A stretch of 64,000 bases of DNA from Proteromonas lacertae (taxonomy: Eukaryota), in contig NGBS01001163.1 of the NCBI GenBank assembly GCA_002245135.1, positions 1 through 64,000 of the forward strand. Direction: 5' to 3'. The notes below the pieces were generated by a model. That model saw only the letters and a list, made by a program, of their open reading frames with translations. It was not told the origin of the DNA and did not search any database. Below, piece after piece: positions 8,867 through 39,381 of the stretch. Both the position numbers and the translations under genes were made by a program. The number at the start of each line of letters is the position of its first letter. Position 1 is the first letter of the stretch.

Positions 8867-8885
8867 TTCCAAAATAAAAAATACT

Positions 8886-10656: not shown

Positions 10657-10679
10657 AAGTTATTTACTGGTTGATTTTC

Positions 10680-11843: not shown

Positions 11844-11930
11844 TATTTACATCATAATTAATAAAAGAATTGTAATTAATTAATGATTTTATTAGAATAT
11901 ATGTAAATAACTCGTTATAATATATGAAGA

Positions 11931-12908: not shown

Positions 12909-12936
12909 TTATTGTTATTAAGTAAAAATTATATCT

Positions 12937-13650: not shown

Positions 13651-14489
13651 TACATTAATATGATATTTTTAGTCTTTTTCCAATACACACCTCTTATCTT
13701 CTCACCCTTTTTGTGATATACGTTAATAATTTTGTCATTTATATTATATTTCTTTCTATAATCATTTATTGCTTCTTTACAAGACAACCAACCGAAATAA
13801 TCATCAACTATAATATATCCACCCACACTCAGTTTAGGATATAAAGCAGTTATTGCTTGAATTGTACTAATATATGTATCACCATCTAACCTAATTACTG
13901 AAAAAGACTTTGATGGTATGTTATGTAATGTTTCATTAAAATATCCTTTTACAATCACTGTACCATTTTCTAAATTTAGTTTTTTTAACATAGTATATAC
14001 ATTTTCTACTGGATTATTATTTAAAATATTCAGCTTTGATGCAGTTTTATCTTGAGAATATTTCGAATTGGGCATAGGTGGTATACCTGAAAATGAATCG
14101 CACATATACACTATTTTTTTCTTTTGATTATATATATTAAGAACACTTCTTGCAAACATCATAGCACCACCTCTCCAACAACCAGCTTCAATTATATCAC
14201 CATTAATATTTTGGTTTATAACACTTTCAATTAGAAACTGTAAATTGTTTAATCTTCTCATTCCAACCATTGTTAGTGCTTTTCCATCTGGCCAAGAGCT
14301 GCCATCGATTATCCATGGTCCATCTTCATAAATGGAATTTAGTATTACTTTTTTCATAAGTTCAATATATTCAATTTTTATCTCATTATATAATTTACTC
14401 ATACTATTTGACTTAACAATTTCTATAATAGAATTACTTATTAATAATATAAATAGACATATCAACAAAACACTAATAACTAACTTCAT
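13650..14489 (-). CDS. TylF/MycF/NovP-family sugar O-methyltransferase with N-terminal anchor
   Basis: TMVGMRRLNNL, GDIIEAGCWRGG, CDSFSG, KGYFNETL, RLDGDTYIST and LYPKLSVGGYIIVDDY. Confidence 0.9.
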   Translation of the reverse strand: MKLVISVLLICLFILLISNSIIEIVKSNSMSKLYNEIKIEYIELMKKVILNSIYEDGPWIIDGSSWPDGKALTMVGMRRLNNLQFLIESVINQNINGDIIEAGCWRGGAMMFARSVLNIYNQKKKIVYMCDSFSGIPPMPNSKYSQDKTASKLNILNNNPVENVYTMLKKLNLENGTVIVKGYFNETLHNIPSKSFSVIRLDGDTYISTIQAITALYPKLSVGGYIIVDDYFGWLSCKEAINDYRKKYNINDKIINVYHKKGEKIRGVYWKKTKNIILM

Positions 14490-14510
14490 TTTCTAACATT
14501 AACAGTAGAA

Positions 14511-15635
14511 ATGAATATAGCAGTTCATATACTCATTGTAATAGTTATGATGTTTATGACTAATATTATTCATTACTATTACTCATTTAGAAATATATTT
14601 ATCTGTAAAAATATATCCAAAATGAACTATTCTCATCTTAAAACTAATAAGATATTTACTTATTATTATCATAAAAGGTCAAAAGTAAATCATATATCTT
14701 TTCTTTTAAGCACAACAACTAACATACATATTATAGATAATAGTGATAAAGATAATTATACTTTGAATATATTGAAAAATGTATTTATTACAAGTAAAGT
14801 TATTATTTATAAATGCAATATTCTATTATTTAATGGTCAGTGTAAAGATAATAAGTGGTATGATAATAACATTAAAGAAAATGAAATCGTTTCAGATGTA
14901 AAATATGGAATTAATCTTATTAATTGGCATAGTGATGGAGTTTTTCATGGTACAGTGGAGGGACTAACTAGAATAGTTCCATATTTACATTTTCTTCAAA
15001 AAAATCAATACATATATATATTTATATCTTATCCAAGATACAAGCAGAATACTGCTAAAAATTTGTTAATTCTATTAGGTATTTCAAAACATAGAATTCT
15101 ATATGGTAATTATTTTGTAAGTTATTTATATGTGCCTTTACCATTCTATTGTGTAGAATCATCAACTCCTTTAGTTGTAAAATTTAATGAAATTTTAAGA
15201 AAAAGAATGAAATTAAAAATATGCAGAATTATAGACTATAATTTTATTTTAATTATTCAAAGAACAAAAAATAGAATATTACATAATATTAGACTACTTA
15301 CAAGAGAATTTTTAAAAAATTTCAATTATTCTATTATTATATATAACGACAATTACACTAATTTGAATGATATATACTGTTGGTTTACATATGCAAAAAT
15401 TATTATTGGATATCATGGATCTGGCCTGACTAATATATACTTTTCCAAAGAAAACACAACTATAATAGAAATATCACCATCTCATCCAATTTATGCTTTT
15501 GCTAAGATAGGATGCCAATTAGGATTTAAATATTATATATATAAGTTATGCTATAATAAATTATATGTAAATCGCATTATCTTTAATATTACATCTTTTA
15601 TAAACTCTTTAAAATACAACAGTATAATGAAATAA
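14511..15635 (+). CDS. GT61-like glycosyltransferase
   Basis: N-terminal TM; FHGTVEGLTR, IQRTKNRIL and IIGYHGSGLTN...TIIEI (HGAGLTN-type motif). Confidence 0.8.
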   Translation: MNIAVHILIVIVMMFMTNIIHYYYSFRNIFICKNISKMNYSHLKTNKIFTYYYHKRSKVNHISFLLSTTTNIHIIDNSDKDNYTLNILKNVFITSKVIIYKCNILLFNGQCKDNKWYDNNIKENEIVSDVKYGINLINWHSDGVFHGTVEGLTRIVPYLHFLQKNQYIYIFISYPRYKQNTAKNLLILLGISKHRILYGNYFVSYLYVPLPFYCVESSTPLVVKFNEILRKRMKLKICRIIDYNFILIIQRTKNRILHNIRLLTREFLKNFNYSIIIYNDNYTNLNDIYCWFTYAKIIIGYHGSGLTNIYFSKENTTIIEISPSHPIYAFAKIGCQLGFKYYIYKLCYNKLYVNRIIFNITSFINSLKYNSIMK

Positions 15636-17111: not shown

Positions 17112-20100
17112 TTATATTTTCCAATTACTTCTCACCAAATTCTCAAACTCTTCATCACTTTTAAAGGTAATACTTATTTTCAAATAATAATCTACAAACT
17201 CATTCATACTTATAAATCCATCTTTCATTGTAGATTTAAAATAATTGGCAAATTCATCTCTTGTTGGATGACTATCACCATTATATAAAGGCAAAATATC
17301 TTTAATTTGTAATTCACTTTGATTTTCTTTATCTAACATATGGAATATATCCATTATAACATTATAACATTCCATTCTATTATCCTTCATAGTTTTCTTA
17401 ATTTCATCTCTAATGTTCTTCAATTTTGCATATTTTTCTTCTACTTTAACATCTATTCTTTTATCTAATTCTAGGTATTGTCTTTTTAATGTATTAATTA
17501 GACGTTCTGCTTCAAACCTTTCTACTTTCAGCTTTATACTATGTTTCTTTAAATCATCAATTCTAAAAGTAATTACTTTAATGTTTTTTTTATCATTTTA
17601 TATATTCCACCTAATTATTTTTGTCTTTTATCAATTCTTGTAAAAATTCTGTGTATGCTCTAATTTTTCTATCTTTACATTCATCACATTGAACAATTTT
17701 TCTATGACTTATAAAGAAGAAGGCAAATTTATTGTATCCTTTTAAATTTTGTATAAATTTTGAAGAATCATTGTCATCTGAGGTGCATAACTATGTTTAG
17801 CAGCAATTGTAATTTGGATACCTCAAGGTCCTAGTAATGCTTCAATATCTGGGAATGAAGGATTATAACTTAAAGGAGCAAATGGAATTATATTGTCATT
17901 AAATGTATATTGTTTAATTATCTTTTCCAATTCATCAGCACTTTGTGGATTAATAACAGTTACTTCTTTATTTAAAATTTTATCTAAATCAATGAAAGGT
18001 GTATAATCTTTTGCATCTTTTTTTAATCTGGTTTTCCATCTTCAATAATGATATGTTCTTTTATAACCTTTTTCATTTCATTAACTATAAAGTACTTTAT
18101 ATACCATGTCTCTAACCGTTTTAGATATAAATCTAAGCTTACCAGATTTAGTAACATCATTTTCATCTGTTTCATATATTACTATACTGTCATATTTTGT
18201 CTTTGATAGAGGAGATTTAGTTATACCTTTCATCATCTCCGTAATTAGTGTTTCATTTACATCTGATAATAATCTTTCCATATTTACTTTATTAGCTTCA
18301 CTGTAATTATCTATAATACCTCCATAATATTCATAATTATCAAGATATAATTTTATTTTTGCTGATAATTCTTCTACACTAACTCTTAATCCTTTTTTTA
18401 TAGATTTATACTTTGTGAATGTATTTTTGTTTTGAGTATTTAATTCTGAAGCTGTCATTACTACTACTTCTTCTATTTCTTCTTGTGTAAATGGAGGTAT
18501 ATACATCACCAATGGACATCTTTTACTTTCAAATGTTTTACATATTTCATCAGATGGATTAGCTAACATTATTATCATTTTTGCATCAGCATAATCATCT
18601 TCACCTACAGCTAATCCATCAACAATAGCAATATATGGTTTATCATCACTAATTATACTACGATGTTCAAATTGTACTTCTTTGTATTCCAAATATACAT
18701 TAAACATTCCTTGTAGTTCTATTTTAAGTTTATCCTTGAGAATATCAGCTAATGTAGTTTTACCTATTTTAGCATGACCAAGTATTAAATAATTTCTTTG
18801 ATAGTTAAAACTAAAATTATCTTTACAAATTATATTCAACATTTTATCAAAACAATTTCTCATTAAATCAACCCCATACTTTCCTACATGCACATAAAAA
18901 TCTTCTTCTGGTGTTTCTTCAACTGGGGGTTCTTCTGCTGGAGCTTCTTCTACTGGAGCTTTTTCTGCTACTGTTGTTGCTGCTGCTGCTGTTGTTGTTG
19001 CTGTTGTTATTGTTGCTGCTGCTGCTACTGTTGTTGTTGCTACTGCTGCTGTTGTTGCTGCTGCTGCTACTGTTGGAGCTTCTTCTGGAGCTTTTTCACC
19101 TAGTGGTGCTGAAGAAGCAGCACCAGTTAATATTGTATCTGGTGGTGCTGTAATTATTGATTCTTCTGGTGATGGTGATTCTATTGATATTAATAAAGGA
19201 GACAATTCTGTTTGTTTGTATTTTATTCCACAATACATAAAATCTCCACTTTTAATTTCGCTGTAATCCTATTTCATTATAAATGTATATAATATATTTA
19301 TACTTTTATAGATTCTTCAATTTCTTTTTTATACTTTTCTATATTAATAATTTCATCATTTAATAAGACTTTTATAAATATCCCATTTACAATTAGATCA
19401 AAGAAATTATCCTCATCCAATATAAAATAAACTAAATTCAATGCATCTTCTTTACAATAAATACATACTTCTTTTTCAGGATTTAATCTGAAATATTGAT
19501 ATTGATCATCACTATTTTCAACTTCTGTATAATCTTCATCATCATATCCTTCATCATCATATCCTTCAACATTATTTTTTTCAACATCAGTTTCGTTAAT
19601 ATTATTTACTTCACTACCTATATCTTCTTTCATCTTAATATTATCAATACTCAAATCATATGCTACTAATTGCTTCAATGCAAGTCTTTTCGTATTAAAA
19701 TCAGTAGAATCGGAAGTATATTCATTTTCCACTGCTGTATAATCCTTTCTACTCATAGGTGGATAGAATTTACAATTAATATAACTCTTAACTGAATTTG
19801 AAACAAACACTAATTGTTCTTTTGGTTCTAATATCATATGACCTAATAAATCATCCATTTTTAATTCAAAATCATATTTTAATATGATGTTGGATAAAGG
19901 ATGATTTTTTAAATTGTCTTTACTTTGATATTCTTTTTCAAACTGTTTATAACCAATTGTACCTATTACTTCTTCAATCAACTTCACGTAATAATTCCAA
20001 TAATCACATTCTTTACCATAATTTTCTTTATATAGATAGTGGTAATATATCTGTCGAGGAATATTACCATATCTTTCACATATTTTTTTAAATTCATCAC

Positions 20101-22062
20101 CATCAACACTAACATTAAAACCACTACAATATTTAAACCACTCCTTGATTTCTATATCCTTTAAAGAATCTAAATATATTTTTCTTGATATATATGTTTT
20201 TATGTATTTATCATAGTTTTTATGAAATGGTGAACTAATTGAGATGATTTTGTTACTATTATCGAACTGTAGATTGAAAGTATCAACTATTATTATAGAA
20301 TCAGTAATATCTTCCACAGCAATTTTAACTCTGAAAATGTAACCATATTTTAATAAATATATTTTCTTTTCATTAGGATTTCCATTTCTCTTTCCTTTTA
20401 CTATGTAAACATCTTTAAACTGTTTATCATTTCTTCTCCATGCATTATTTAAAACCTTATTATTTATATCTTTATATAAATCCTTTATAAAGTATAGTAA
20501 TACATAAATAAACGATGTTTTACCAATACCTGGTTGACCTATTACTACTACAAAGGTAAATTTTTCAATAAGTTTAACAATATCTTTAAACATTGTGTAA
20601 TAATCATCTCTAATGAAAATTTCATTCTTAGGGAACTGGAAAACACTTTTCTCTGATAATACAAACTGTAAATAATCCTTTTTTGAACAGGTAAAACATC
20701 ATGACCATTCTCATCTAGTTTATTATGTTTAACAATATGCAAACTATTCACTATTTTAACGAAACTATCTGATAAACCTAGATTTATATCTTCATCACCA
20801 TAACAGTTTAAGAATATCATTAAATCTGTAATATCACTTTCATCTATGTATTCCTTTTGATACTCTTCTAAAGAAAATCTAGATTCTATAATATCTTTTA
20901 TTGGAGTAATATCAATGTTTGCTCCATTAAGATATTCCAATAACTGTCGAACATAATACTTTTCATAATTATACATTCCATAAATATTATTTGGCGTATT
21001 TACCTCAGTAATTTTTTGATATTCTTTGTATTGTTTTATTCCATACATCCTTGTATTTCTATATACTGCAATATCATTGTATGTCTGATAATCTTGATCC
21101 TCTTGATAATATTCTATTAATTTCACTTTGTTATTTTCAACTCTAATAAATGGATAAATTTTATTTATTTGGATATTTTGTTTATATAATTCTTTACCAT
21201 CTTCATTTTTAATTAACATTATCTTGTTAATCATATCATATTTTACTTCATATATTTCTCCTTTTTCTACCTTCCCTTGAAGTATTACTAATCCTTCCAT
21301 GTTTTTACTATTCAAATTAGATGTATAACCAAAGCTAATAGCATTACTACCAACACTCATTATTTCATAATAGAAATGATAAATACCTTCATTCATTTCC
21401 TCATTTATAAAATAACTACATTTACCTTCACCTCTATCTTCAAATAACATATCAACAACAGTATATTGAATAACATTATTAACATTCTGAACATCATATA
21501 AATTACTTGAATATTTTTTAAATGTAACAAAATTGTCCTGAATAACAGTTTTAGTTTTACGAATTTTTGATCTATGTATTGAAACTGAAGGGAGATATCT
21601 AAAACCTGTTAATCTAACTTCATTATTCTCATCAAAAAACATAATATATGGGTTAATTAAACCTTCCATATCACCTAACAGTTGTATTGTTTCTCCATTT
21701 CCACATCTCATCGACATTGTCATCTCATTCATATCAAATATAAAATCATAGATTGCACCTTCTTTTCCTTGAATATTTAACGTTTTAAATAGTTGATTAT
21801 CTTTATATACCACTGATTTATCACCAAACATCTGGATGACACCATAGATATCTGGAAATGTATATTTATGATAACCAAAACACACATAGTTATTAAATTT
21901 TGCTATCTGTAATTGGTAATGATAAATTCCATCAATCATCATTCCTTCCAAAGAGTAGAAATTACTTATCACTTTTTGGGGGTCACTAGGAGGAATACCA
22001 TTCTTGGCATCATCAATAGAGATTGGCAATATATAATCTACTTTTGATCTTGAGTTATTCAT
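17112..22062 (-). pseudogene. Crinkler/RHS-like multidomain gene: 2 SPRY-like repeats, NTPase-REase x2, calcyphosin-like EF-hands (disrupted)
   Basis: First module: EIFIRDDY..GQPGIGKTS..IIVD..SSP..YGNIPR. A 35-nt intron lies at 19269-19303. Second module: GHAKIGKTT..IVDG..MYIPPFTQEE..RFISK, then SFPDIEALLGP*GIQITIAAKH. C-terminus: DGFISMNEFVDYY...LVRSNWKI. Frameshift near 20680 and several lesions at 17590-18090. Confidence 0.7.
18969..19075. repeat. Mixed (TGT/TGC)n trinucleotide repeat encoding an Ala/Thr linker, flanked by APEE/APVEE repeats
   Basis: Seen directly in the sequence; separates the two NTPase modules. Confidence 0.9.
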
Positions 22063-22309
22063 CTTTTAATCCAAAACAACACTTTAATCCCAATTATCAA
22101 CTCTATATACTCTATTAACTCAAAATTTTATACTTTAATGGTTGAAAGGCAGCTTATAGCAGAGATATTAACAATAATAATTAATAGAAAAAGAGCCAAT
22201 CATTTTTCGTAATTTAATACTTTTGAATTTCGATTTTCTTGTGATATATAGCCAGATGAATTATTTCATTTGTAGATTTATATATATTATTATGTATTTA
22301 GTAATTTAA

Positions 22310-22582: not shown

Positions 22583-25471
22583 TTAAAATCCATCAATCCA
22601 AACACTGCCATTACCTTTTTTATCAACTGTTGCATTATATATTTCTTTTTCACTCAATTGATTAAATGCTTCACAACATCTATCAATATAATTCTGAGAT
22701 GGAGTATATGGTGGTTTTATTTCATGTTTTAATAATGAGTTATAATCCATTGTACTTAGCCATTTATGATGTCTAATTTCACTTATTCCTTCTTTGTTAC
22801 ATCCCAATCTTTGTAATGGTTTTAATCTCAAAATTGATCGAATAAAATCAGTAGCATCAGTTGTAAAGAATAAAGGATAACTTACTCTTCCTTTTATAAT
22901 CTTTGATATTTGTTCACTTTGTCCTCCTTCTCGTGTTAATTCAAATGGAGTTTCACCATTCAAAAATTCATAAACTAATACTCCATAAGCCCAAATATCA
23001 GCACTAAATCCATGTCCTTTATTTAACCATATTTCAGGAGCCATATAATCAGGAGTTCCACATAAACTATAAGTTCTATCAATAATGATCTTGGCATTAC
23101 CAAAATCAGCTATTTTCACATAACCATTTGAACATAATAATACATTCTCTGGTTTTAAATCTCTATAAACTATCTTCTTACTATGTAAATGTTCTAAACC
23201 TAATAATATTACAGCACTATAGAATTTAGCATCTTCATCATATAATCTTCCTGTTCGACGATGTAATAATAAAGTACGAAGATCTCCAGCTTCTATAAAC
23301 TCTTGCAACATATATACATAATTATTATCTTGGAATGTAGTAATTAATTTTACTAAAAATGGATGATTCATTTCAGACATTAATTTCTTTTCATTCATTA
23401 TATTTCTTTTTGCTGAATTACTTTGTAATTTGGTTTTACTTACTGCTTTTAAGGCAAATACACTATTCGAATTCTTTGGTTTTACTTTCTTAACTAATGC
23501 AAATCCACCTAAACCTAAAACTCCTAACACTTCTAATTCATCTAATTTATATAACATAGGTTGAACAATATCTCCAAATTCTTTGATTGTTAAAATAATA
23601 CATCGTACATGATCAACAGCGACAAATTGATATTTACTTGGTTCATTAGAAAGTATTGATACTTCGCCAAAGTAACTTCCTTTATTTAATTCATTCTTTA
23701 TTCCTTTATTTGTTTCTTGAATTACAGTACCATCTTCAATGATGAAAAAGGACGATGGTTGATCTCCAAAATGGATAATCACATCATTGGCGTTGTATTC
23801 CATCACTTTGGAATTTTCTACTAATAATTCTTGAGCCATCGGTGGTAATTGCATAGATCCAAAGAACTTTAAAGAATTGATAAATTCTTCCATTTTCTTT
23901 CTTTCTAATAATTGTTCCATTGGGCCTAAATGTTTAATAAATGCATCTCTGGAAATTGATAAAACTGTTACACTACCAATTGTCTTTATACTAGCACTTC
24001 TTGCTTCTTCTTTAATCAAAGCTCTTTCACCAAAATGATCATTTATTGTTAAATGACGTAATTCAATTTCTTTACCATTTTCACTTTTATAACAAACAAC
24101 TTCACCTTTTTGAATAATATAGAATTTATCTCCAATATCTCCTTCATGGAATATAATACTATTATCTTCAAATTTCTCTATTTCTACACTATCAACTAAT
24201 TGCTCTCTTTGTTCTGGTTTCAATGGAGATAATACTGGAGCACTATCTAAAAATCTTCTCTTCATATTTCGTTGTAATATATTCTCTAAACTACCTAATA
24301 TTTTATCAAATGCATCTCTACGTAAAACCCAACATTCAGTTGTGCCATAACTCACTACATCTATAGTACGAGGTATATCGTGTAATAAAGCAATTTCACC
24401 AAAATAATCATTCTCATGAAGTCGACGGATTTCTATTCTATTACCTCCACCTTTTTGTTGGTTTATTTCTTCTTTAATGAATTCGATTACTTTATCATCT
24501 TTTTCTTCATTCTTTTTCTCTTCTTGTTGTTGCTGTTGTTGTTTATCAGCAGGATTTTTATCTTTACTACCATCATTATTATTAACATCATTTTCACCAC
24601 CATAACAAATAGCAACTCCACTTTTAATAATATAAAATTTTGTTCCTCTTTCTCCTTTCTTAATAATATATTGACTGTCATTAAATACATCCACTTGTAA
24701 CATAGAAACCATCTGAATTAATTGCTCTTCAGTAAGGTTCTTCAATAATGGTATTTCCTTTAATAAAGATACATATTTATCAGTTTGATTAGTTTCAATC
24801 TTGTAGTTTTCCACTTGAAAATCACTGCCATTGATCATCCATAAACTTACATCTGTTACTGCTTTTACATCTATTTTGGAGGGACCAGGATGGAATAGAT
24901 TTATATCACCATAAGTATCACCTGATGTAATAATTGACTGAGATTTTTCATCTGTTACTTCCAATTCTCCTGTTTCTACTACTACAAAGTAAATAGATAA
25001 TTCTTCTTTCCTTATAATGTATGTTCCAGTTTTGAACTCACGTAAATACATGTTATGACAAATACCATTCTTTTGATTTGTTTCAAATTGAGACAACACA
25101 CTGCTATCTTGAATAGCTTTCCATATTCTTTCTTCAGATGCTTCACTCTTGATGGTCATTTTTTGGGTTTTATCATCTACTTCAGGTCTATGTTAAATAT
25201 AAATCATTGATAATAGAAGTTATATATACGTTAAACAACTTGGTCTAACCAAGTTTCTTTTTCTTCTTTGTTCATATTGTTCTAAGTCTGTAGCATCAGG
25301 TGTGCTACTCTGTGTTTCTCTCAGATCTTCTTGTTTGAGTTTATTTACTTCACTACCATCTAGATTTCCTTGGTTACCACCATTTGATAAATCTTTATTG
25401 CCACCAGTTTTTTTCTGCTTCTCATCGAATTCTGCAACCACAGTGTTTGATTTGGAACTTCCACACCCCAT
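22583..25471 (-). CDS. cGMP-dependent protein kinase-like (4 cNMP-binding domains + AGC kinase), 2 exons
   Basis: MGCGSS acylation start; 42-nt intron at 25188-25229; FGEIALL..PRT, FGERAL..RSA, GLGGFA, YRDLKPEN, DFG and CGTPDYMAPE. Confidence 0.9.
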
Positions 25472-25835: not shown

Positions 25836-26941
25836 ATGCAAACACTCACAGCACCTTCAAGTACATATAAAGAGCCTTCTCACTTATGAAAATAGGTAAT
25901 AATAAGAAATCTACACCAAAATCGTATTAATCTTAATCATTTTAATCTTTATTATAAGTAAATTTGGTAAATTTATCGCAAAAAATAAATCAAACATGGG
26001 AATATGGATAACATGCTTTATGTTGATAACATTTGTTTATAAATTCATAAGTGATGGAAATTTCTCCTTTTTACTTGTAAATAAAATATTGTAAAATTAT
26101 CAATAATATAGACACTTGGAAGCATGATTCAATTATTTGGTTTTTCAATTTTGGCTTATAAAAATACTTTAGAAAAATCAGTTACTGGTGTTAGTTTAAA
26201 AACTTTAGAATGTTATTCATTTGTTTTCTTATTCAGATTTTTATCCGTCATATTTTACAGTGGATATCTACCCCTTGATAAATCAGGTGATTGGTTTTAT
26301 CAATTATGTGAAGTTTTATCATTTATTGTTACTTTATATAACATTTATTTGATATTATTTCCATTGAAATATACACATAACATTCATTGTGATAATTATG
26401 GTTATGTAACTAAATACATACCAAATAGAATATGTCATATTGTTATGTTAGTTTTACCATCTTTGTTATTAGCTATAGTATTTTTTTTAATTTAATATAT
26501 ATTTGTAATAGGTTTATCATTCTAATTTAAATCATAATACCACTCTTGATATTTGTTGGGCATTCGCTGAATATTTAGAATCTGTTGCTATATTACCTCA
26601 GCTTCATATGTTTCAGAATAACAAAACAGGAGAAATTGAAGCATTTACTTCACACTTTGTTTTTAGTTTAGGTTTAAGTAGATTTTTACAATTATTATTT
26701 TGGCTGTCATCTTATCGAGAATTGTCTATGGTTAAATCTGGTGTTACTGGAGCATCTGCCTATTTCAATGTAGGAACTTTAATTCTATTATCTCAAATGA
26801 TTCAATTATTGTTAATGGCAAATTACATATATTATTATATTATGAAGTATTTTTACATATAAAGCTATAATTTTATTGTTGTATAGTAAATTTAGTGGTG
26901 GTCCTTTGAAATTACCTGTTTTAGTCAATATGAAAATGTAG
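25836..26941 (+). CDS. ER lumen protein-retaining receptor family (ERD2-like), 6 exons
   Basis: SDGNFSFLL, GVSLKTLE, GYLPLDKSGDW, YLESVAILPQL and FTSHFV; five 34-40 nt GT-AG introns keep the frame. Confidence 0.85.
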
Positions 26942-27072
26942 AAACAATGTCTGTTATTATTTAAATTAACAAAATGATAAGTTTTTATTTATTTATTGAG
27001 ATATTGTACTTTGGGTAGATAAAATCCAATAAAAACATTAAAATATAATACTAGTGTATAATCTTTAGTTAG

Positions 27073-27324
27073 CTACATAACAGTACACATCTTAAAGCAA
27101 GTGTGGCATAATCTACAAGTCTATCAAAAATATAACCAAATAAATAATACATGAGGACTATGTGAATGAGAATGTCTATGTCCAGAATGAGAGTGGGAGT
27201 GAGAATGGGAGTGGGAGTGAGAATGACCTCTACCTCTTCCATGACCATGACCATGACCATGTGGACTATGTGAATGACCTAAATAATATTATTAATGAAA
27301 TAAAAATTGATGTATTATACCCAT
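27073..27324 (-). CDS. 59-aa His/Ser/Gly-rich micro-protein A with MGxxxS start and CaaX end
   Basis: Exons 27321-27324, 27151-27278 and 27073-27120 (introns of 42 and 30 nt) give MGHSHSPHGHGHGHGRGRGHSHSHSHSHSHSHSGHRHSHSHSPHTCRLCHTCFKMCTVM. The paralog at 29328 has the same exon structure. Confidence 0.85.
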
Positions 27325-27680
27325 TATTTAGTTAGATAGATTTTTTTTAAAATGAATAACGGTTTTTAAATTCTATTTTGAATAAACATTCTTCAAAATG
27401 TATAATTACTACATTCATAAAAATCAAATAGAAAAAGTGGTATTTAATTTATTTGTAGTGTATTTAAAAGTATTTTTCACCTAATCTTTGAGAAAAATTG
27501 ATTAAATTATTATTAATCTCATGAATTATCAAACAGCTATAAGTTATTAATAAATTTCAATTATAATAACGAATGATAAATTATTGAATAAGATAGAGAG
27601 TTTTATTCAATTCTATTTTGATTCAAGCTCAATCATTTAAGTTTGAGACAGTTAGTTTTTTTATATTTCCATTTATTTTG

Positions 27681-29179
27681 ATGAATTATTACTCTACAAG
27701 TCAAGAACAATCACAAGATGAAGGAAAAGTACTGAGACTTCAAATTGAGAGACTTCAACACGAGTCAGAACTTCGAGAAGAATTAATTCAGACTTTAGAA
27801 CAAGAAAATGCAAGATTAAGAGTATGATCGAAAAATATATATTTATTATAGGATGGTTTAGATAATCAAAGACAGATAAGTCAACAATTACAAGAACAGT
27901 GCTATAACTTTGAAGGTCAATTGAAATCTATGAGTAATCAAACTGAACCACTTAATTCCAGCTTAAATCAGACAAAAGAAGTCTTGGAAAGTAAATCAGT
28001 CGAAATACAACAGAAAGATCAAGAGATAAGTCAGTTAAGAAATCATTTACAAGAATATCAAAGAAGAATAAATGAATTATCAGATCAAATAAAAGCCAGT
28101 GAACTTGATAACACTCAATTGAGACTATTTTTAGATGTATTATTATAATTTTATATTCATAGAAAGAAAAAAGAGAACATGATGAAAGTATTGAAAAAAT
28201 AGCAAGAGAGAATAGAAGATATGTTTCACAAATCAAAAATATTGAAAAAGATCGTAATGACTTAGGAGATGAAATAACTCAATTAAAAATAGCTTTACAG
28301 CGTCAAATGAAAGCTAGTGAAGTAGATACAAAGAATTTTGAAGAAAAAATCATTTCTTTAACTCGTAAAATCAACGACCTTGAAGATAATAATTCAACAA
28401 CACTTCTAGACTCAAGTGACAAAATGAACAGAATGAATAGGAAAATGAGAGAACAAGCGGCTTTAATAGAGTCATTAACCCATGATTTAAAAGACAGTGT
28501 AACTGAAATAAGTAGATTAAAGAAAGAAAGTGAAGATAGAGTAAATGCTTTAATATCTCAAAGAAATGTTTTTACAAGTCATATTGAGAAGATGGATAAT
28601 AAGTGGAGAGATGAAATACAAAATGTGATCAATGAAAGGGATCAATTAAAAGTGGAAATTACTCAATTAATGATGGAATTGAAGAAATTGCAAGAAAATC
28701 CAAGTGTCTTATCAGCTAGACAACATGCTCGTGAAATGGAAGAGCAATTAAAATCAAATGAAAGAGATATGGAAAGATTGATAGATAGTATGAAGAATGA
28801 AAAAATGTCTTTAATTAATCGTGTGTATGACCAATCTTTAACTATCCATACATTGACAGATTCTGATAGAAAAAATAAAGAAGATGAATGGATGAAGTTA
28901 GCAACAGGTGCTAAAGTAGAAAAGAATATAAATTCAAAGAATGTGATAGATAGTGGAGATGATGATATATTAAAGACAATTACAGGTAAAAAGTTGAATT
29001 TCAATGATGATATAATGAATACACCTTTACTATCCTCATCAACTTCAAACATTAATGCTAATAGTTATATTTATGCTAGTCCATCTAAAATGAAGGTTGG
29101 AAGTAATTCAAATAGTACAAATGCTAGTTTACAATATCAGTCTATTGTTAATTCACCATTACCAGATTTTTTGAAGTAA
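27681..29179 (+). CDS. Long coiled-coil protein, 3 exons
   Basis: Heptad-rich E/K/Q/L ORFs joined in frame by GT-AG introns near 27822-27851 and 28137-28162. Confidence 0.75.
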
Positions 29180-29327
29180 AGGTGATAAAAATACTAAATA
29201 AATCTATTTTATATATGACAGTTATGTGTTTGTTGGACGGTTTTTCTTGCAAACAAACGAAAAATAGTCCTTTAATCACATTCATTCGTGTAACTGACAA
29301 ATTCCGTTTTTGAATTTTTTTTATTAG

Positions 29328-29588
29328 ATGGGTATAATGTTATTTTTTATATTACGTATATAGGTCATTCTCATAGTCCAAGAGGTCATGGTCATGGTCA
29401 CGGCAGAGGCCATCATAAAGGCCATTCTCACTCTCATAGTCATAGTCATTCCCATAGTCATAGTCATAGTCATAGTCATAGTCCAAAAAGAGGTAATCCT
29501 GTATATATTATAAACTGTTAATATCTCTTATTAGTGTCCAATGTGTCCGATATGTAGGCCATTCTGCAAAATGTGCACAGTCATGTAA
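29328..29588 (+). CDS. 64-aa His/Ser/Gly-rich micro-protein B with MGxxxS start and CaaX end
   Basis: Exons 29328-29331, 29364-29500 and 29535-29588 (introns of 32 and 34 nt) give MGHSHSPRGHGHGHGRGHHKG(HS)10PKRGNPCPMCPICRPFCKMCTVM. Confidence 0.85.
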
Positions 29589-29773
29589 TTATGGCATTTA
29601 ATTGATGCTGAAATGATTTTATATAGAAAATTTATCTTTCATATTTTTTGTGTTTTAGACATTTTAATCTATAATCAATAATCGATGAGATTAGGGTTTC
29701 ATCTAAAATTTATACCTATAACTAAAACCAACATACTAAAAATGAAATATAAATATTAAAACAATTCTAAATC

Positions 29774-30304
29774 TTATGCTTTTCTCAATTTCTTATCCAA
29801 AAAGTCTTTCATTTGATCGGATGACCATCCAGATATACTAATACTCTCTTCTTTTTCGTTGTGATTCAACATTACAAACTTAGGATATGGATTTCTTATG
29901 TACTATTCATTATAACATCATAATCATACAATAATGTCCAAATTTGTATATTTCTTAGAATATCTTCTTATAAATTCTTGCACTTCAGGAAATTGCTGTA
30001 AACTCCATCTACTTATTCGCAATTCTGCTTCATCATACAATGTCTATTGATATATAATGATTCTTGCATATCTATACTCCTTCTTTTGAAGAATGATCTT
30101 CAGTACAACACATATTGCATTCATCAATTAAAGCTATATTATTAAGTAATAGGCAATACTCAAATCATCAACAAATTCAGCCAATTTATCACAACGACTG
30201 CATTGAACAGCATCACTAAAACCCCAATCGATGCATTTAGGATCAAATGTGCAAATTACCATAGAAAAACATAGAATTAGTGAAAATAACTTCGCAATAG
30301 ACAT
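29774..30304 (-). CDS. Sep15/SELENOF-like ER thioredoxin-fold protein, 4 exons
   Basis: Signal peptide, CIDWGFSDAVQCSRCDKL, ECNMCC, YDEAELRISRWSLQQFPEVQEFI and ISGWSSDQMKDFLDKKL; introns at 30134-30159, 30044-30077 and 29903-29929. Confidence 0.8.
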
Positions 30305-30412
30305 TTTTTCTTGAATTATAATTTCAAGCTAAATCAAGCCTATTTTCTTTCTAAGTTGATTATCACATTATCTGGTGTATTAAATCAAATAAAAATTTAT
30401 TATGATAGAGAA

Positions 30413-32090: not shown

Positions 32091-33490
32091 CTAAACTGTT
32101 ACATTTGCATCTCTTTCTTTTATTACATGCTCAATTTTCTTAAACAATCGACAGTAGCAACAACTTGTTTGTATTATGTATTCTTTCGTAGTTTTCTGAT
32201 ACTTTATGAAATGATACAAAGGTCTCGCGTGTTTCAATCTGTTACATTTGTATAAACTACTTTCATCAAATCTAATGTGATCTTGTTCATAATAATCATT
32301 TAAATCTGTTAATTCTATTACTCCTTCATTAGCATATTTTATTGCACATTCAATACAAACAACTTGATTTCTTATTAATAATACTTTCTTTTCTCTTGTA
32401 ATATTGTTACAAGTAAAACAAACCACTTTTAATTCTTTATATTCTTTATATAACATTTCATCTTTATCATTTATTTTAGTATTTCCCACTAGTTTTTTCC
32501 CTTTTGGATATTTGCTATGAATGTCATTTGTTCTTTTTCTTTTTTTATGGTTTGTTTGATAGTTTGCATTATAACTATCATATTTGCGTTTTAAATGCTT
32601 ATTTTCACTTACTAATGAATCAATAACTCCATTGTTATATAATGTTTGAAGATTTGTAATAGAATTATTTACACTTAAGTTTGATAATGATGTAATAGAA
32701 TAATTTCATTGGATGAAATAATGTTGACAATATATCATCATGTGTATAACTGATAGTTTGTAATGGTGGTGATAAATCTGCTATGGCATTATCTGTAACG
32801 TTATCTATTGAAGAAAATGGAATTTCTTGTTGAATGTTTTCATCTTCATCAGAAAGATTTGGAGAAAGTTCTGTAAATTGTTCAGGTGATAAATCATCAT
32901 TACATGGACTAATTAATGGTAATTGATGATCTAAACAATTATTACATTCATTCTGAGTTGATGTTGATGTATAATTGTAATTTTTATCTATAATCATTTC
33001 TAACCCTTCGACAATTGATGTATTTATATCTTGTGGTGTAGAATTATTCATCAATGCATCGCTCATTATCTCTTCATCTCCATCTTTAGGTGATGCTGGA
33101 GGTAAAGGAGTTACATTTCCAGAGTAAAAGTCAACACTCTCACAAATGCTATTATTTACATTCAATATAACATTTTCAACATAATCCTCAAAGTTAACCA
33201 TTTCTAGATTAATTTCGTCTGTAATTTCAACAGATTTATTAATTGGTTGTAGTTGCAGTGACTGAACAAAATCATCAGCTTCGAGTGTTATATTCTTTAT
33301 TACTATCATATATAACTCTATCTAATTGTTCCATCATTAACTCATTTGGATTATCATATAATTCCACCTCAAAATCTTCGTCACTTTTTGTTTCTTCATC
33401 TCCATTGTGAGTTAAAGTATAAGCTTGTAACACGTTTAAAAATTCTTGAATTTCGTTTTCACCTACTCTAATAGTGTTAGTCTCTCCCAT
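32091..33490 (-). pseudogene. Cys/His-domain tandem family copy 1 (two frameshifts)
   Basis: Three overlapping frames; ends with CFTC..CIECA..DLNDYYEQ..YKCNRLKHARP..HFIKYQK..CCYCR. Confidence 0.7.
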
Positions 33491-33839
33491 ATTACTTTCT
33501 TCTGTTGCAGTTAAAAAAATTACTTGGAAAATTACTAGTGTTGTTACCTTCGCTCATTGTCTCATTTTCTTGATTGTCATTTGCATTTGTATTATGCAAT
33601 CTTATATTGTCAAAATAAATCAATGGGGAAAATATCTTGTGAAAGTAATTTTGTATTGTAAAAAGCATAGCCGATTGTATCTTTTAAAACAATAAAATGA
33701 CTTTTCAATATTTACACAGAATTCAAACATATTTGTCTAATAAAAAAGTAAGATTTTTAACCTAATTTATTATTTTATATGAAACAGCATACCAATACAA
33801 CATTCTAATATATGATAAATTATCTAAAAAATGTTTTAT

Positions 33840-34923
33840 TCAACTTATTATTTTTTTATTCTCTTTTTCAAGTTTTATTTTCTTATTTTTTATTACATTT
33901 TCTATTTTCTTTATCATTCTACAATAACAGCAACAAGTTGCTATTCTATATCCTTTGCTGTTTTTCTGATATATAACATAATGAAATTTAGGTCTGGAGT
34001 GTTTTAATCTTCTGCATTTATATAAACTACTTATATCAAATGTTATATTTTCTTGCTCAAAATAATCATTTAAATCTATCAGTTGTATTTTTCCTTCTTC
34101 AGCAAGTTTCTTTGCGCAAGTAATACATAAATTTTGTTTTTTATATAATAAAACATTACTACAACTTTCATTCTTTTTGCAATAATAACAACTCACTTCA
34201 TTTTTTATAAATTCATTATAGTTTAATATGTCACTATCATCAGCTTTAATTTCTTTATTAATTTCTTCTCCCTCGGTGTATTTACTAAGTATTTTACTAG
34301 TTCTTTTTTGTCTTTTTATCAGTTTACTATTAATATTTTCATATTTACGTTTTTTACTATTTATATTCATTGTATTTATCATTTCTCTTTTATTATTATC
34401 ATCATTGAATGAATTACGTATTGGATATGGAGGAGGAGGTGTTAAATATGTATTATGTTCATTTGTAGATGATATATTACAATATACATATGAGATCGAA
34501 GTTATTATTGTAACTGGTGATTTTCTATTTTCATATACGCTTTTACATGCACATGTATCTATTATCTTATCTTCACTATCAAATTTCTGTGGTGGTATGT
34601 TAACATTTGTATGATTCACTACCTTTATGAAATTACTCTGATTTGAAATATTATTCTCAATCACATCTGTTATTTCATCATACCTATCATAAGTTGCTAC
34701 ACTATCTAGACATATTATACTATTTTCACTCACTGATTCTTTTTTAATGGTTAATTCGTTTTCACCTAAAATACTATTCGATTCTTTGCTTTCATTAGAG
34801 CCGATTGATTTTTCTTTATTACTACTATTAGCATAATATCTTTTCTTGAGAATGGATTTTAAGATCTTTAGTTTCTTTAGGTGCTATAGACTTATTAATA
34901 CTTTTATTCCCTGGCATAAACAT
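33840..34923 (-). CDS. Cys/His-domain tandem family copy 2 (the 5' ATG at 34923 is out of frame)
   Basis: CYYC..CITCA..DLNDYFEQ..YKCRRLKHSRP..HYVIYQK..CCCYCR, with KKRKY upstream. Confidence 0.75.
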
Positions 34924-35302
34924 TTTAGTGTTATCTGCAATCAATATATGATTAACTGGCATATTATTAAAAAAATAAACAAAAAGTATTTACATAGAAG
35001 ATGTAAATTTTGTTTATGTAAAAAAACAGAAGTTCTTACATATTTTCTACTTATGCATATATAAACAATATATCACAATTTGATAAATAAATAGGCTTGT
35101 TTAGGTGATTTTTATATTTAAGGGCATTGTCGTTGTTATACAATTATTTAATAGAAGCATTTTATATATTCATACAAAATATATATGTCAAAAATAACAA
35201 TAATATATATATTATAATAATTACATAATTTGCATATATAACAGATAAAATACAAGCTTAACTTTATTGCATTATGATTTTTCTTGCCTTTTCTTTTGCT
35301 TT

Positions 35303-36055
35303 CTAATTCAAATTTGCATCTGCATTAGATTGAGTATGAATTTGTGTATTTACATTATCATAATTACATTCATTTGTATATGAAGATTTTGGAAGTGGTA
35401 TATATTGCATTACATCTCCATCATCTGCACTAATACTCAATATTTGTTGAAATGAAACAGACTGTGGAAGTGGTATATTCTTTTCTTCTTCAATATCTTC
35501 GTTAATAGGTAATAATAGTGAAGTTGATATTTGCATAATTGAATTCTCATGAGATTCTATGGAATATGAAGATGATGGTAATGAATAAATTGAATCATTA
35601 ACATTTTGATTTACAAATGAAATTGAAGATGAAGATGAAGGAAGTGAATAAAATGAATTGTCACTTTTAATACTATCATTTGGATAGGATGATTCTGGAA
35701 GTGGTATATATTGTATATCATTGTCACTATTTTCATTTACACATAATAATAGTTGTTCTAACATATCTTGCATTGGATTTACTTCAGTTGGAAGTACAGG
35801 AGGATTTGCAGTACATAATTCTGGAGATATTGCTAAATTAATTATATTATCTGTATGATTTAGTGCTTTTTCTTCACAAGAATCAAATCTGTGAGTTTTT
35901 CTTTGAGTTATATTGAAAACAGTATCAGTAATATGACTCTCTACATCACTACTAACATGAACATCATTACTTATATCACTCTCTCTCATATCTTCGTTTA
36001 GAACAGTAACTCCTCTCATACTATATTCTTCTTCATCTGAATCTATAGCATCCAT
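35303..36055 (-). CDS. Acidic Ser-rich protein with internal repeats (QYIPLP, YSLPSSS); lacks the Cys/His domain
   Basis: 250-aa ORF inside the array; the IPLP motif occurs three times. Confidence 0.55.
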   Translation of the reverse strand: MDAIDSDEEEYSMRGVTVLNEDMRESDISNDVHVSSDVESHITDTVFNITQRKTHRFDSCEEKALNHTDNIINLAISPELCTANPPVLPTEVNPMQDMLEQLLLCVNENSDNDIQYIPLPESSYPNDSIKSDNSFYSLPSSSSSISFVNQNVNDSIYSLPSSSYSIESHENSIMQISTSLLLPINEDIEEEKNIPLPQSVSFQQILSISADDGDVMQYIPLPKSSYTNECNYDNVNTQIHTQSNADANLN

Positions 36056-36361
36056 TAAAAATATATACGAATACCTGATATTTCCATTATTTTGTTGAGG
36101 ATATTAATCAGATTTTTGTATGTAAGATTATTATGAAAATTTTCATACACCCAAATTTATAGAAATTATTTACATACAGGAAACAAGGTAGTATTGAAAT
36201 AATTGCGAGTTTTTATGACTTATTTTTACTTAACCTTAAAAATAAAACATTTTATATATCGTATATAATACTATTAAAAATTGCGATTGAAATTTGCATT
36301 AACTGTTATATACATTGATATAAATAATGATAAAAGATGATTTGCATTAACTATATAAATT

Positions 36362-37486
36362 TCATAATACATGATTAGCATATGCATTTGCATTTGCATT
36401 TTTACATACATTTATTGTTGTTGTTGCTGGTGGTGTTATATTTTCATTCCTAAAATGTTTTATAAAATTTTCAATTTTTTTAATTAATCTACAATAGCAG
36501 CATAATGTCTCATATTCATATTCTCTTTTTGTCTTTTTATATTTTATGAAGTGGTATCTAGGTCTATCATGATGTTCTCTATGGCATTTGAATAAATTAT
36601 TTCTATCAAATCCTTCTTCATAAGGTTTAAAGTAATCACCTAAATCTGTTACATATTTTATTTTCCCTTCTCTTATGAATTCTTTTGTACAATCTATACA
36701 TAAAGTCTCTTTGATATATATGAATAACAAATATTTAGCAACTTCATTTTTACAGTTTTTACATATATCTGTTTCATTAATAAATAATTCATAATCTTTT
36801 ACATCTTCATTACTTGCAATTCCACTTTTAGCTATAGGGGTATCATCATAATTACATAAACTTTTAATTATGTTTGTATTTTTATTTCTTTTTATAGGAG
36901 TTTTTCTATTTTCACTGTTGCAATGTTTGCGTTTTGCTTTTATATTAACACTTTCATATATTTCATGTATAGCATTATTATCTGGAAGTAAAGGTGGAGA
37001 TGATGAAGGTAAAGGAGAATAAGAAGGTAAGGCAGGTAAATTGTCATCTTCAACTCCATATCTCTGAAAATATTGTGGTTGAGATATATTTACACAATTT
37101 GAACTATTTAATGAAAACTGTGGTGATAGTGGAATATTTGAAGGAGGTGTTATTTGAGGTAAAGATAATGGCGAATTTGGAGGTGATAGTGAAAGTGGAG
37201 TTGAGGATAAAAAGTCATCTGTGTCTAGGGATGAAAGCGAAGGTGAAGGAGGTATTGAGGATGAAGGAGATAAATATAAATCTGTTATGGATAATGAAGG
37301 AGACTTAGGTGAAGATTGAATGGAGAATAATGCTGAACATTCTGATTCACTATCCGTATTACTTACAAAACTGTATGTTATCTGGCCCATAGTATCATCT
37401 TTATAATCCGTTTGTCTTTCACTTAACTCATGAATTTGAGTATCTTTTCTTTTAAACTTTATACTAGTCCAACCTCCTCTTATCAT
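36362..37486 (-). CDS. Cys/His-domain tandem family copy 3 (374 aa)
   Basis: Ser/Pro-rich N-terminus, KRKH, then CKNC..CIDC..DLGDYF..FKCHREHHDRP..HFIKY..CCYCR. Confidence 0.8.
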   Translation of the reverse strand: MIRGGWTSIKFKRKDTQIHELSERQTDYKDDTMGQITYSFVSNTDSESECSALFSIQSSPKSPSLSITDLYLSPSSSIPPSPSLSSLDTDDFLSSTPLSLSPPNSPLSLPQITPPSNIPLSPQFSLNSSNCVNISQPQYFQRYGVEDDNLPALPSYSPLPSSSPPLLPDNNAIHEIYESVNIKAKRKHCNSENRKTPIKRNKNTNIIKSLCNYDDTPIAKSGIASNEDVKDYELFINETDICKNCKNEVAKYLLFIYIKETLCIDCTKEFIREGKIKYVTDLGDYFKPYEEGFDRNNLFKCHREHHDRPRYHFIKYKKTKREYEYETLCCYCRLIKKIENFIKHFRNENITPPATTTINVCKNANANAYANHVL

Positions 37487-38000
37487 ATTAATGTTTTTCT
37501 TAACTAAGCCTTAGTTGTTAAGTCAAAATCTATCTAAATAACTTAGAAATGTCAAAAGTGAATTTTATTGGCTAAATTGTTATGAAACGAACTAATTTTC
37601 GATAACCCAATTAAAAAACATACACAACGGTAAAATATACAAAAATATAAAATAATAAATAGCAAAAACATTAGTGAGCTTTTATATCAATATTTCCTTA
37701 TCTTGTTGCATAAATATTTGCTTTATCTATATATATCTGCTTTGGGTGGTTGTATTTGCCACTCTTTTGATATATAGCTGTGAGAATAAAAAACATTAAT
37801 TATTTGATCTATAATTATTTGTAGATATTGAATGTTTAGAATAAACAATTTTTAAACTGAAATATCAATTGTGTACGACATGATGTCTTTATCTAAAATA
37901 TATTATTTGTTTCTATCTGCAAATATAAACTGAATAAAACAATAAATTAAAACACATATAAAACGCTAAATATTTTACAAAGTGTGGAGATTAAAATAAC

Positions 38001-38587
38001 TCATCCACTCTTATAGCTATTAATACTGTTTAAAATTGTTTCTATTATTTGATTAGCTTTTGGTTTATTTCTTTTTCTCTTACGAATATCTTCAATTCTC
38101 TTTATTAAACGACAACAACAACAATATTGTAAATATTTAAATGTATGTTGAGTAGATTGATATTTTAAAAAATGAGTTTTGGGTCTTGAATGATTTAATC
38201 TATCACATTTATAGAGTGTTATATTTTTATTATCAAATTTTTCTTCTTTTTCTTCAAAATAATCATCCAGTTCACATATATGTTGAATTGTTCCTTCTTT
38301 AACTAAATTTTCTGCACAGTCAATACAAATAATCTCGTTTTCATATACTAATAACATACTCTTACTTACCATCTCTTTACAATAGTGACATTCATTTGTT
38401 TGTTTAATAAATTCTTCATATTCTTTTATTTGATTAATTGCTGCATTATTTCCTGGATTTGGTTCTCCTCTTCTATTTTTACTTTTTATATCGTTGGTTC
38501 TTTTATATGTTTTTTTAGAATCTGTAAATTGTGTAATATTAGATTGTTGTTCTTGTGGTGGTGGTGGTGTATATTGTAGAGGAGGTG

Positions 38588-38637
<50 letters not shown>

Positions 38638-39191
38638 AGAAATTGTTGTAAAATGATTATATTTGTTTTACGAATTTTATTTTTTCTTTCATCATCTATT
38701 CTGTCATTACAATATTTCCTTTTCACTTTTTCTTCATTTTTATCCACAGAATGAGATATATTATTATAAGATACATCTTCATCTTTTTCATTTATTAATG
38801 TTCTAATTGATTTTGAAAGTTCTAATTGTGGTAATGATATATGAGGAGAAGGAGTAGAAGAAGGAGAAAGAGAGGAATTATTCTTTGTTGGTGGATGAAA
38901 ATTAGTATTTAGCATTTCATTGTTATTACTTGGAATAGGTATTCTCACCAAAATTACCTCACTATTTTGTCTTCCTATACGATTTACATCACTTGTATCA
39001 CAATCTCGTCCAGAATGCTGAAATAAGTTCGACATATCATCATTATAGTTATTATATGTTTCATCATGACATACATTAGTACAATTACTTAAATCATATC
39101 CATTTATATTATCAGTAGATGTATCACCTAATCTATTAGTAAAAGAGTTAGGTGTACAAATAACTTCTTCTGATTGTGATAAATAACTCAT
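38001..39191 (-). CDS. Cys/His-domain tandem family copy 4 (396 aa, polyQ)
   Basis: KRKY and polyQ, then CHYC..CIDCA..ELDDYFE..YKCDRLNHSRP..HFLKYQ..CCCCR. Confidence 0.8.
38589..38637. repeat. (TTG)n microsatellite encoding polyQ on the minus strand
   Basis: About 16 perfect units seen directly. Confidence 0.9.
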
Positions 39192-39381
39192 ACTTACATC
39201 ATAAAATTAAATATTTAAATTACTTATTTATTAAAAATTTTGGTAAACCAATTTCAAAAAAAACTATAGTGTTGTTAAGTTATATAATATAAAATAATGT
39301 TTATTAATTAGATTATGTTAGGCAGGAGCTAATTGTTGTGATAATAAAATATTCTTCATTTCATTTTCACTATTGCATTTA

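What the first reader, a model, noticed from the sequence alone, without database searches (positions are those of the whole stretch)
27073..29588. Two hidden poly-histidine micro-proteins predicted to be lipid-anchored at both ends
Seen: two three-exon genes (59 and 64 aa) are invisible to the ORF track and sit in inverted orientation around a coiled-coil gene. They share a 4-nt first exon (ATGG), intron phases, the start MGHSHSP, (HG)n and (HS)n tracts, a Cys-rich last exon with CxxCxxC, and the end KMCTVM. The introns and many synonymous sites differ, which implies selection on the peptide. Known: MGxxxS is the N-myristoylation consensus, CTVM is a farnesylation-type CaaX box, and His-rich peptides such as Hpn bind Ni, Zn and Cu. 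Inference: a membrane-tethered metal-chelating or pH-sensing loop, possibly bridging two membranes. I know no family with this design.
Basis: partly seen in the sequence, partly recalled or inferred. Interest (0 to 1): 0.85.

Follow-up and report, generated by a model that had tools for sequence, protein, structure and literature searches.

The report
Tail-anchored poly-histidine micro-protein pair
Two tiny, probably spliced genes in an AT-rich single-celled eukaryote keep nearly the same histidine-rich peptide of about 60 residues while their DNA has drifted, and the peptides are likely fixed to a membrane by lipids at the tail only and likely buffer zinc-type metal ions there.

Summary
Both three-exon models (64 and 59 aa) close with GT-AG introns of the size and type seen in neighbouring genes. 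Selection on the peptide is clear: the His frame is 37 of 39 residues identical (other five frames 17-24), 24 of 28 base differences lie in codons with the same residue, six serines switch between AGY and TCN codons, and the last seven codons have 5 silent and 0 replacement differences. Splicing is untested (no RNA run listed). The tail CTVM is a canonical, cleavable farnesylation box. The N-terminal anchor is doubtful: G-H-S-H-S-P breaks the relaxed PROSITE myristoylation pattern at His3 and Pro7, and Pro7 occurs in 0 of 75 measured human sites. Best reading: a peptide anchored at the C-terminus only (farnesyl, probably plus S-acyl on 3-4 upstream cysteines) with a free, disordered, acid-free His/Gly/Ser arm that binds divalent metal and gains about 9 charges between pH 7.4 and 6. 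It works like CYSTM/CYSPD peptides but fails their membership test. No homologue was found, but the searches were weak: only the low-complexity exon was a protein query.

The parts
29328..29331 (+). gene A exon 1 (ATG plus first base of Gly2)
29332..29363 (+). gene A predicted intron 1, 32 nt, phase 1, GTATAA..TAG, 16% G+C
29364..29500 (+). gene A exon 2: His/Gly/Ser arm; (HS)n tract built mainly on AGT serine codons (8 of 12 Ser in the gene)
29501..29534 (+). gene A predicted intron 2, 34 nt, phase 0; a rival donor at 29493 scores far lower (-5.3 against 3.5) and would give 51 aa without CaaX
29535..29588 (+). gene A exon 3: 17 codons plus stop, five Cys (CxxCxxCxxxCxxC), ends CTVM
27321..27324 (-). 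gene B exon 1 (ATG plus first base of Gly2)
27279..27320 (-). gene B predicted intron 1, 42 nt, phase 1, 12% G+C
27151..27278 (-). gene B exon 2: His/Gly/Ser arm; (HS)n tract built mainly on TCN serine codons (10 of 12 Ser in the gene)
27121..27150 (-). gene B predicted intron 2, 30 nt, phase 0, holds two in-frame stops if retained
27073..27120 (-). gene B exon 3: 15 codons plus stop, four Cys (CxxCxxCxxxC), ends CTVM
27681..29179 (+). intervening three-exon coiled-coil gene, about 480 aa (introns 27822-27851, 28137-28162); only sub-threshold coiled-coil Pfam hits; no evidence of a functional link

Best explanation
These are two selected, probably spliced paralogous micro-protein genes whose products are predicted to be farnesylated at the C-terminal CTVM, likely S-acylated on the cysteines just upstream, and likely held on the cytosolic face of a membrane with a free histidine-rich arm that would buffer divalent metal such as zinc. 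Shown by sequence: the gene models, selection on the His frame and on the tail, 17 and 19 His, no Asp or Glu. Inferred step 1: farnesyltransferase modifies the CaaX Cys, the last three residues are cut and the end methylated. Inferred step 2: 3-4 upstream Cys, which with the CaaX Cys fall within a 120-140 degree arc of a helical wheel, are palmitoylated and lock the tail in the bilayer. Inferred step 3: Met1 is removed and the N-terminus is probably not myristoylated. Inferred step 4: the alternating H-x-H arm binds Zn, Ni or Cu at neutral pH; as pH falls to 6 the computed net charge rises from about +5/+7 to +14/+15, which would release metal and pull the arm onto anionic lipid, so metal buffering and pH response are two sides of one switch.
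For: Gene models and introns. Selection: His frame 37/39 identical against 17-24 in the other frames, 24 of 28 differences in same-residue codons, 6 AGY/TCN serine switches; last 7 codons 5 silent, 0 replacement, about 1e-4 if placed at random. CTVM predicted prenylated and cleaved, Ras-reporter score near CVIM. Cys wheel angles 0-140 and 320-80 degrees. Small proteins with a disordered head and a Cys-rich C-terminal helix are palmitoylated, sit at the plasma membrane and are linked to metal stress (PMC10840359; PMC2804304). His3/Pro7 against myristoylation. Charge titration. Alternating His tracts in Zn-transporter loops and Hpn bind metal (recalled, not tested).
Against: No transcript, proteome or homologue supports any step. 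The upstream half of the tail differs between the copies (9 of 16 codons give the same residue). S-acylation has no consensus and is inferred by analogy only. Any poly-His peptide binds metal in vitro, so binding would not show a role in the cell; for CYSPD proteins the metal mechanism is itself unresolved. Gly2 and Ser6 are kept in both copies and His3 is tolerated in one measured substrate. The prenylation data are from yeast reporters, not this organism.
Confidence: 0.45

Rival explanations
1. One reading: myristoyl on Gly2 and farnesyl at the tail hold both ends, giving a His loop on one membrane or a short bridge between two.
For: Gly2 and Ser6 are conserved in both copies and fit GxxxS/T (PMC10908362). 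Gly2 is not forced by splice-site habit: 0 of 10 reference introns have G before the donor. FBXL17 shows His3 can be accepted. The PROSITE pattern has known false negatives.
Against: His3 and Pro7 are both excluded by the relaxed pattern; Pro7 in 0 of 75 sites; human NMT binds residues 2-7 as an extended strand with a pocket shaped for a charged residue 7 (PMC7048800). Ser6 follows automatically from an H-S repeat. A kinase gene in the same window starts with a textbook motif, MGCGSSK, so this organism does use canonical starts.
Confidence: 0.2
2. A pH-gated polycation like hisactophilin or BASP1: the arm's job is electrostatic (clustering anionic lipid or binding actin as pH falls), not metal buffering.
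For: No acidic residue, Arg/Lys spacers, computed charge +5/+7 at pH 7.4 to +14/+15 at pH 6 and +19/+20 at pH 5.5. Hisactophilin uses 31 His and a lipid as a pH switch for membrane and actin binding (PMC9245636).
Against: Hisactophilin's switch needs a folded core that hides the myristoyl group; these peptides have no room for one. No partner is known.
Confidence: 0.15
3. A farnesylated mini-metallothionein: the upstream cysteines stay free and bind Zn, Cd, Cu or an iron-sulfur cluster together with the His arm.
For: Both tails hold CxxCxxCxxxC, the spacing of ferredoxin-type cluster ligands, and gene A has CPxC knuckles (sequence; motif names recalled). Cys chelation was proposed for CYSTM.
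Against: In gene B the fourth Cys of that spacing is the CaaX Cys itself; the Cys register differs between copies (FC against CF); intervening residues are hydrophobic or basic with no Gly; CYSPD cysteines proved to be acylated.
Confidence: 0.1
4. Precursors of an exported lipopeptide signal, like fungal a-factor: the His arm is a pro-piece and the farnesylated tail the active part.
For: Small, easily missed paralogous CaaX genes with an identical end are typical of fungal pheromone loci (recalled; an unchecked earlier finding, e1-7523277, describes one).
Against: The His arm is more conserved (37/39) than the upstream half of the tail, the reverse of a disposable pro-piece; no tandem copies of a mature peptide; no such system is known to me in this kind of protist.
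Confidence: 0.04
5. The models are wrong: the tracts are hexamer microsatellites, or exon 2 is read in the hydrophobic +1 frame and joined to the same tail.
For: The tracts score as 6-nt tandem repeats. Alternative ATG/donor combinations give hydrophobic 43-57 aa products ending in the same tail. No RNA evidence.
Against: The two tracts use different DNA units (TCATAG against GAGTGG on the + strand) yet encode the same dipeptide; the +1 frame is only 20 of 36 identical; alternative donors depart from the window's GTAT type.
Confidence: 0.06

Closest known systems
CYSTM/CYSPD superfamily (yeast Cpp1/Ybr016w, rice CDT1, Arabidopsis PCC1; PMC2804304, PMC10840359)
   Same: 60-150 aa, disordered low-complexity head, Cys-rich C-terminal helix with Cys on one face, lipid anchoring, link to metal stress.
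   Different: No patch of 3-4 consecutive Cys, no acidic residue after the helix, head is His/Gly/Ser rather than Pro/Gln, and the tail ends in a CaaX box (the word CaaX does not occur in the main text of PMC10840359).
Hisactophilin (Dictyostelium; PMC9245636)
   Same: His-rich, lipid-modified, charge titrates near neutral pH.
   Different: Folded protein with a myristoyl pocket and actin binding; no CaaX tail recalled; here about 60 aa, no fold expected, lipid at the other end.
Heavy-metal-associated isoprenylated plant proteins (HIPPs; recalled)
   Same: Metal-binding part plus C-terminal CaaX.
   Different: HIPPs have a folded HMA domain; no Pfam family matched exon 2 and the peptides are too short to hold one.
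Helicobacter Hpn and His-rich loops of ZIP/CDF zinc transporters (recalled)
   Same: About 60 aa His-rich peptide (Hpn); alternating H-x-H tracts (transporter loops).
   Different: Hpn is bacterial, soluble, with consecutive His runs and no lipid; transporter loops are parts of polytopic proteins.
Ras-type and paralemmin-type CaaX-plus-palmitoyl tails (recalled)
   Same: Cys three residues upstream of the CaaX Cys (gene A) and basic residues near the anchor.
   Different: Here the anchor carries no folded or signalling domain.

Membership tests
CYSTM/CYSPD | C-terminal helix with 5-6 Cys, 3-4 of them consecutive | tested here: not met
   5 and 4 Cys, none adjacent; definition from PMC2804304
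CYSTM/CYSPD | acidic residue after the Cys helix | tested here: not met
   no Asp or Glu in either peptide
CYSTM/CYSPD | Pro/Gln-rich head with a hydrophobic strand | tested here: not met
   no Gln; head is His/Gly/Ser/Arg
CYSTM/CYSPD | small size, module at the extreme C-terminus | tested here: met
   59 and 64 aa
CYSTM/CYSPD | Pfam CYSTM match on the tail | not tested
   the last exons (15, 17 aa) are below the 20-residue minimum; exon 2 matched no Pfam family
CYSTM/CYSPD | S-acylation of the Cys | not testable with these tools
   needs acyl-biotin exchange or MS
canonical CaaX farnesyltransferase substrates | C-terminal C-a1-a2-X accepted and cleaved | tested here: met
   CTVM positive in all prenylation and cleavage predictors; Ras_HM 18.0; yeast data; Ydj1 enrichment 0.79 is intermediate
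N-myristoyltransferase substrates | Gly2 and Ser/Thr6 | tested here: met
N-myristoyltransferase substrates | residue 3 not in EDRKHPFYW and residue 7 not Pro | tested here: not met
   His3 and Pro7; His3 1 of 75, Pro7 0 of 75
hisactophilin | folded core that sequesters an N-myristoyl group | tested here: not met
   about 65% His/Ser/Gly, about 60 aa; profile of exon 2 found 0 PDB chains at E<=10
HIPP | HMA domain plus CaaX | tested here: not met
   no Pfam family on exon 2; family definition recalled
Hpn-like metal-binding peptides | measured Ni/Zn/Cu binding | not testable with these tools
   needs ITC or ICP-MS
fungal lipopeptide pheromone precursors | processed, exported farnesyl peptide with a receptor | not testable with these tools
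   conservation pattern argues against a disposable head

The most novel reading that the evidence does not exclude
A minimal protein lipidated at both ends (myristoyl on a non-canonical Gly-His...Pro7 start, farnesyl plus S-acyl at the tail) whose poly-His linker folds or collapses with metal or protons, acting as a pH- or zinc-gated tether between two membranes: a design not found in my searches.
Probability: 0.15. Interest if true: 0.8.

Novelty: new variant of a known kind. Interest (0 to 1): 0.5.

Why it matters
If right, it adds a class of membrane-tethered poly-histidine peptides that gene callers miss (4-nt first exon, low complexity, 15-17-codon last exon) and that profile searches filter out, so relatives may be overlooked across protists. 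It is a very small, fully synthesisable test case for how cells buffer metal or sense pH at the membrane surface, and for whether a protist NMT accepts a His3/Pro7 start. The AGY/TCN switch in the repeat is an unusually clean sign that a low-complexity tract is kept for its peptide.

Tried and rejected
No RNA holder was listed for 26500-30200, so no reads were laid; no whole genome is held, so further paralogues could not be sought. Protein searches used exon 2 only: one query gave 1 hit at E 7.1 of 415 candidates, the two-sequence profile 2 hits at E 4.6-5.3 of 423; both hits are unrelated His-tract ORFs without MG start or CaaX; 0 hits at E<=0.001 among 1.84 billion representatives; 0 PDB chains; 0 Pfam families; no usable Atlas hit for gene B exon 2. 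These blanks are weak because of low complexity. DNA patterns: gene B tail in metagenomes 0; His-tract-plus-CaaX in viral contigs 2 and in metagenomes 109 loci from 16 of 64 parts, nearly all (CA)n microsatellites: of 111 loci 49 had a true stop, 2 an H-S/G tract, 1 both (L001), and L001 has no MG start or Cys-rich tail; tail pattern in viral and prokaryote genomes 0; start pattern in viral contigs 2, both with a stop two codons in. No Rfam match. A neighbouring kinase gave no close named relative (best 56% identity, unnamed), so the lineage stays open; a TGTTTGTT 3' motif (recalled from Blastocystis) occurs 9 times, only once seen at a gene end, and was not used. The idea that Gly2 is a by-product of splice-site preference was rejected. 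Paper searches for this design found nothing relevant in the listings; one search returned 0 papers and one paper was not held. No fold or complex was predicted: the arm is low-complexity and has no alignment depth. A search of Toxoplasma myristoylome supplements for MGH starts returned only signal-peptide rhoptry proteins and one Babesia orthologue, uninformative.

Full report
Setting. The window is 20-30% G+C and carries eukaryotic genes with short introns: a cGMP-dependent-type kinase, a KDEL-receptor-like gene, Hsp70, glycosyl- and acyltransferases and a large class C GPCR-like gene. The lineage was not established: the kinase's best relative is an unnamed protein at 56% identity, the named ones lie at 30-34%. 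No genome is held and no RNA run was listed.

Observation. Introns are 32, 34, 42 and 30 nt, GTAT..TAG, 12-18% G+C, against exons of 35-46% (4-nt exons aside). Ten reference introns, picked by me from the 24 candidate junctions as the canonical low-G+C ones, are 25-42 nt with the same ends; because of that pick the donor scores are partly circular. With that caveat the modelled donor of gene A intron 2 scores 3.5 and the rival donor at 29493, which would abolish the CaaX end, -5.3. A search of the whole window for 30-120-aa models of up to three exons ending in a CaaX-like box returned only these two loci. The genes face away from each other round a 480-aa coiled-coil gene; DNA similarity is confined to the exons, and the introns are no more alike than unrelated introns.

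Selection. On 39 aligned codon pairs of exon 2 (of 46 and 43; gapped and unaligned codons dropped) the His frame is 37 of 39 identical; the other five frames give 20/36, 20/36, 21/39, 24/36 and 17/36, several with stops. 28 of 117 bases differ, 24 of them in codons with the same residue, and six serines have switched between AGY and TCN. The two (HS)n tracts thus rest on different DNA repeats but spell the same peptide. In the last seven codons all 5 differences are silent, including TAA against TAG (about 1e-4 if random). Against uniform constraint: over the last 16 codons only 9 give the same residue, and the first 16 codons are close at DNA level too (3 of 14 degenerate codons differ; 87% over 53 nt), which leaves room for local gene conversion there.

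The tail. CTVM is scored prenylated and cleaved by all predictors in the 8000-motif tables of PMC9231725 (supplement rows seen). In PMC10320760 (passages and supplement rows) its Ras_HM score is 18.0 against 19.4 for CVIM and 4.9 for the non-canonical CASQ; its Ydj1 enrichment, 0.79, lies between canonical (0.41, 0.49) and non-canonical (1.61) controls. These are yeast data. Both tails fit C-x-[IL]-C-[RH]-x-(FC or CF)-K-M-C-T-V-M, and the cysteines fall in a 120-140 degree helical arc. CYSTM proteins share the small size, disordered head and one-faced Cys helix (PMC2804304, passages), and three yeast members proved palmitoylated (PMC10840359, passages). S-acylation here is inference by analogy.

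The start. It fits GxxxS/T (PMC10908362, passages) but not the relaxed PROSITE pattern, which bars His at 3 and Pro at 7 and is itself error-prone (PMC1885993, passages). Human NMT1 binds residues 2-7 as an extended strand, with a pocket suited to a charged residue 7 (PMC7048800, passages). In the 75 HeLa sites of PMC10696250 (passages, file 2 whole, file 3 part 1 of 2) I counted His3 once (FBXL17, Lys7) and Pro7 never. The kinase in this window begins MGCGSSK, a canonical start. I put myristoylation at about one in five. If unmodified, a free Gly-His start is itself a Cu(II) site of the GHK type (recalled), unless acetylated.

The arm. 17 and 19 His, 12 Ser, 8 Gly, 5-7 Arg/Lys, no Asp or Glu; computed charge of the unmodified peptides +6.8 and +4.9 at pH 7.4, +15.2 and +14.2 at pH 6.0. 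Alternating H-x-H tracts recall the cytosolic loops of zinc transporters and Hpn (recalled). Hisactophilin is the known His-plus-lipid pH switch, but needs a folded core (PMC9245636, passages).

Relatives. None found. The blank is weak: the spliced peptides were never a protein query, only low-complexity exon 2 was; the tail was sought only as exact DNA patterns; the metagenome scan covered 16 of 64 parts and was swamped by (CA)n repeats; eukaryotic genomes were not searchable. Paper searches for His-rich CaaX peptides, for myristoyl plus farnesyl at both termini, and for small His- and Cys-rich prenylated metal proteins showed nothing relevant in their listings (listings and abstract starts only); subscription journals are mostly outside the library. 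Earlier findings had no look-alike; one unchecked note on a fungal-type pheromone precursor only prompted a rival.

Verdict. Real, selected micro-protein pair (about 0.9); C-terminal farnesyl anchor likely; second anchor more likely S-acyl next to it than myristoyl at the far end; function most likely metal buffering at the membrane, coupled to pH (0.45 for the whole chain). It works like a CYSTM/CYSPD peptide with a poly-His head and a CaaX end, and is not a member of that family, of the HIPPs or of the hisactophilins. New variant of a known kind; interest 0.5; the two-ended tether remains possible at about 0.15.

Noticed in passing
window 29777-30328 (-): Sep15/SelM-like gene next to gene A (Pfam PF08806 at E 5e-4 and 1.5e-5 on two exons, below the curated cut-off). 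Where the family's Cys-x-Sec motif is expected (recalled) the exon reads S-R-W, so it may be a redox-inactive, selenium-free homologue.
   Followed up: partly
window 25906-26930 (+): KDEL-receptor-like gene (PF00810) converging on gene B's 3' end.
   Followed up: partly
window 32091-39206 (-): At least four tandem paralogous ORFs share a Cys/His-rich C-terminal block (C-x2-C ... C-x2-C ... C-x-R-x2-H-x-RP ... CCxYCR), a possible lineage-specific zinc-binding domain; not searched against Pfam.
   Followed up: no
window 54215-63850 (-): Intron-free 3211-aa frame with 7-8 periplasmic-binding repeats followed by a 7tm_3 domain: a giant class C GPCR-like protein.
   Followed up: partly
window 2044-15635: Cluster of acyltransferase-3/SGNH and glycosyltransferase (GT92, GT61) genes in a very AT-rich stretch (20-24% G+C), resembling a surface-glycan modification cluster.
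   Followed up: no
window 22583-25471 (-): cGMP-dependent-type kinase with four cyclic-nucleotide-binding stretches and a canonical myristoyl/palmitoyl-type start.
   Followed up: partly
window 29225-29234 (+) and about 40-50 nt upstream of both ATGs: A TGTTTGTT motif lies 48 nt after the coiled-coil stop; both micro-genes have ATTCATT upstream of the start, a possible shared initiator element.
   Followed up: no
window 19298-22065 (-): Two-exon gene with a weak nSTAND3 NTPase hit (E 8e-6, below cut-off) next to an ORF with no Pfam family.
   Followed up: no
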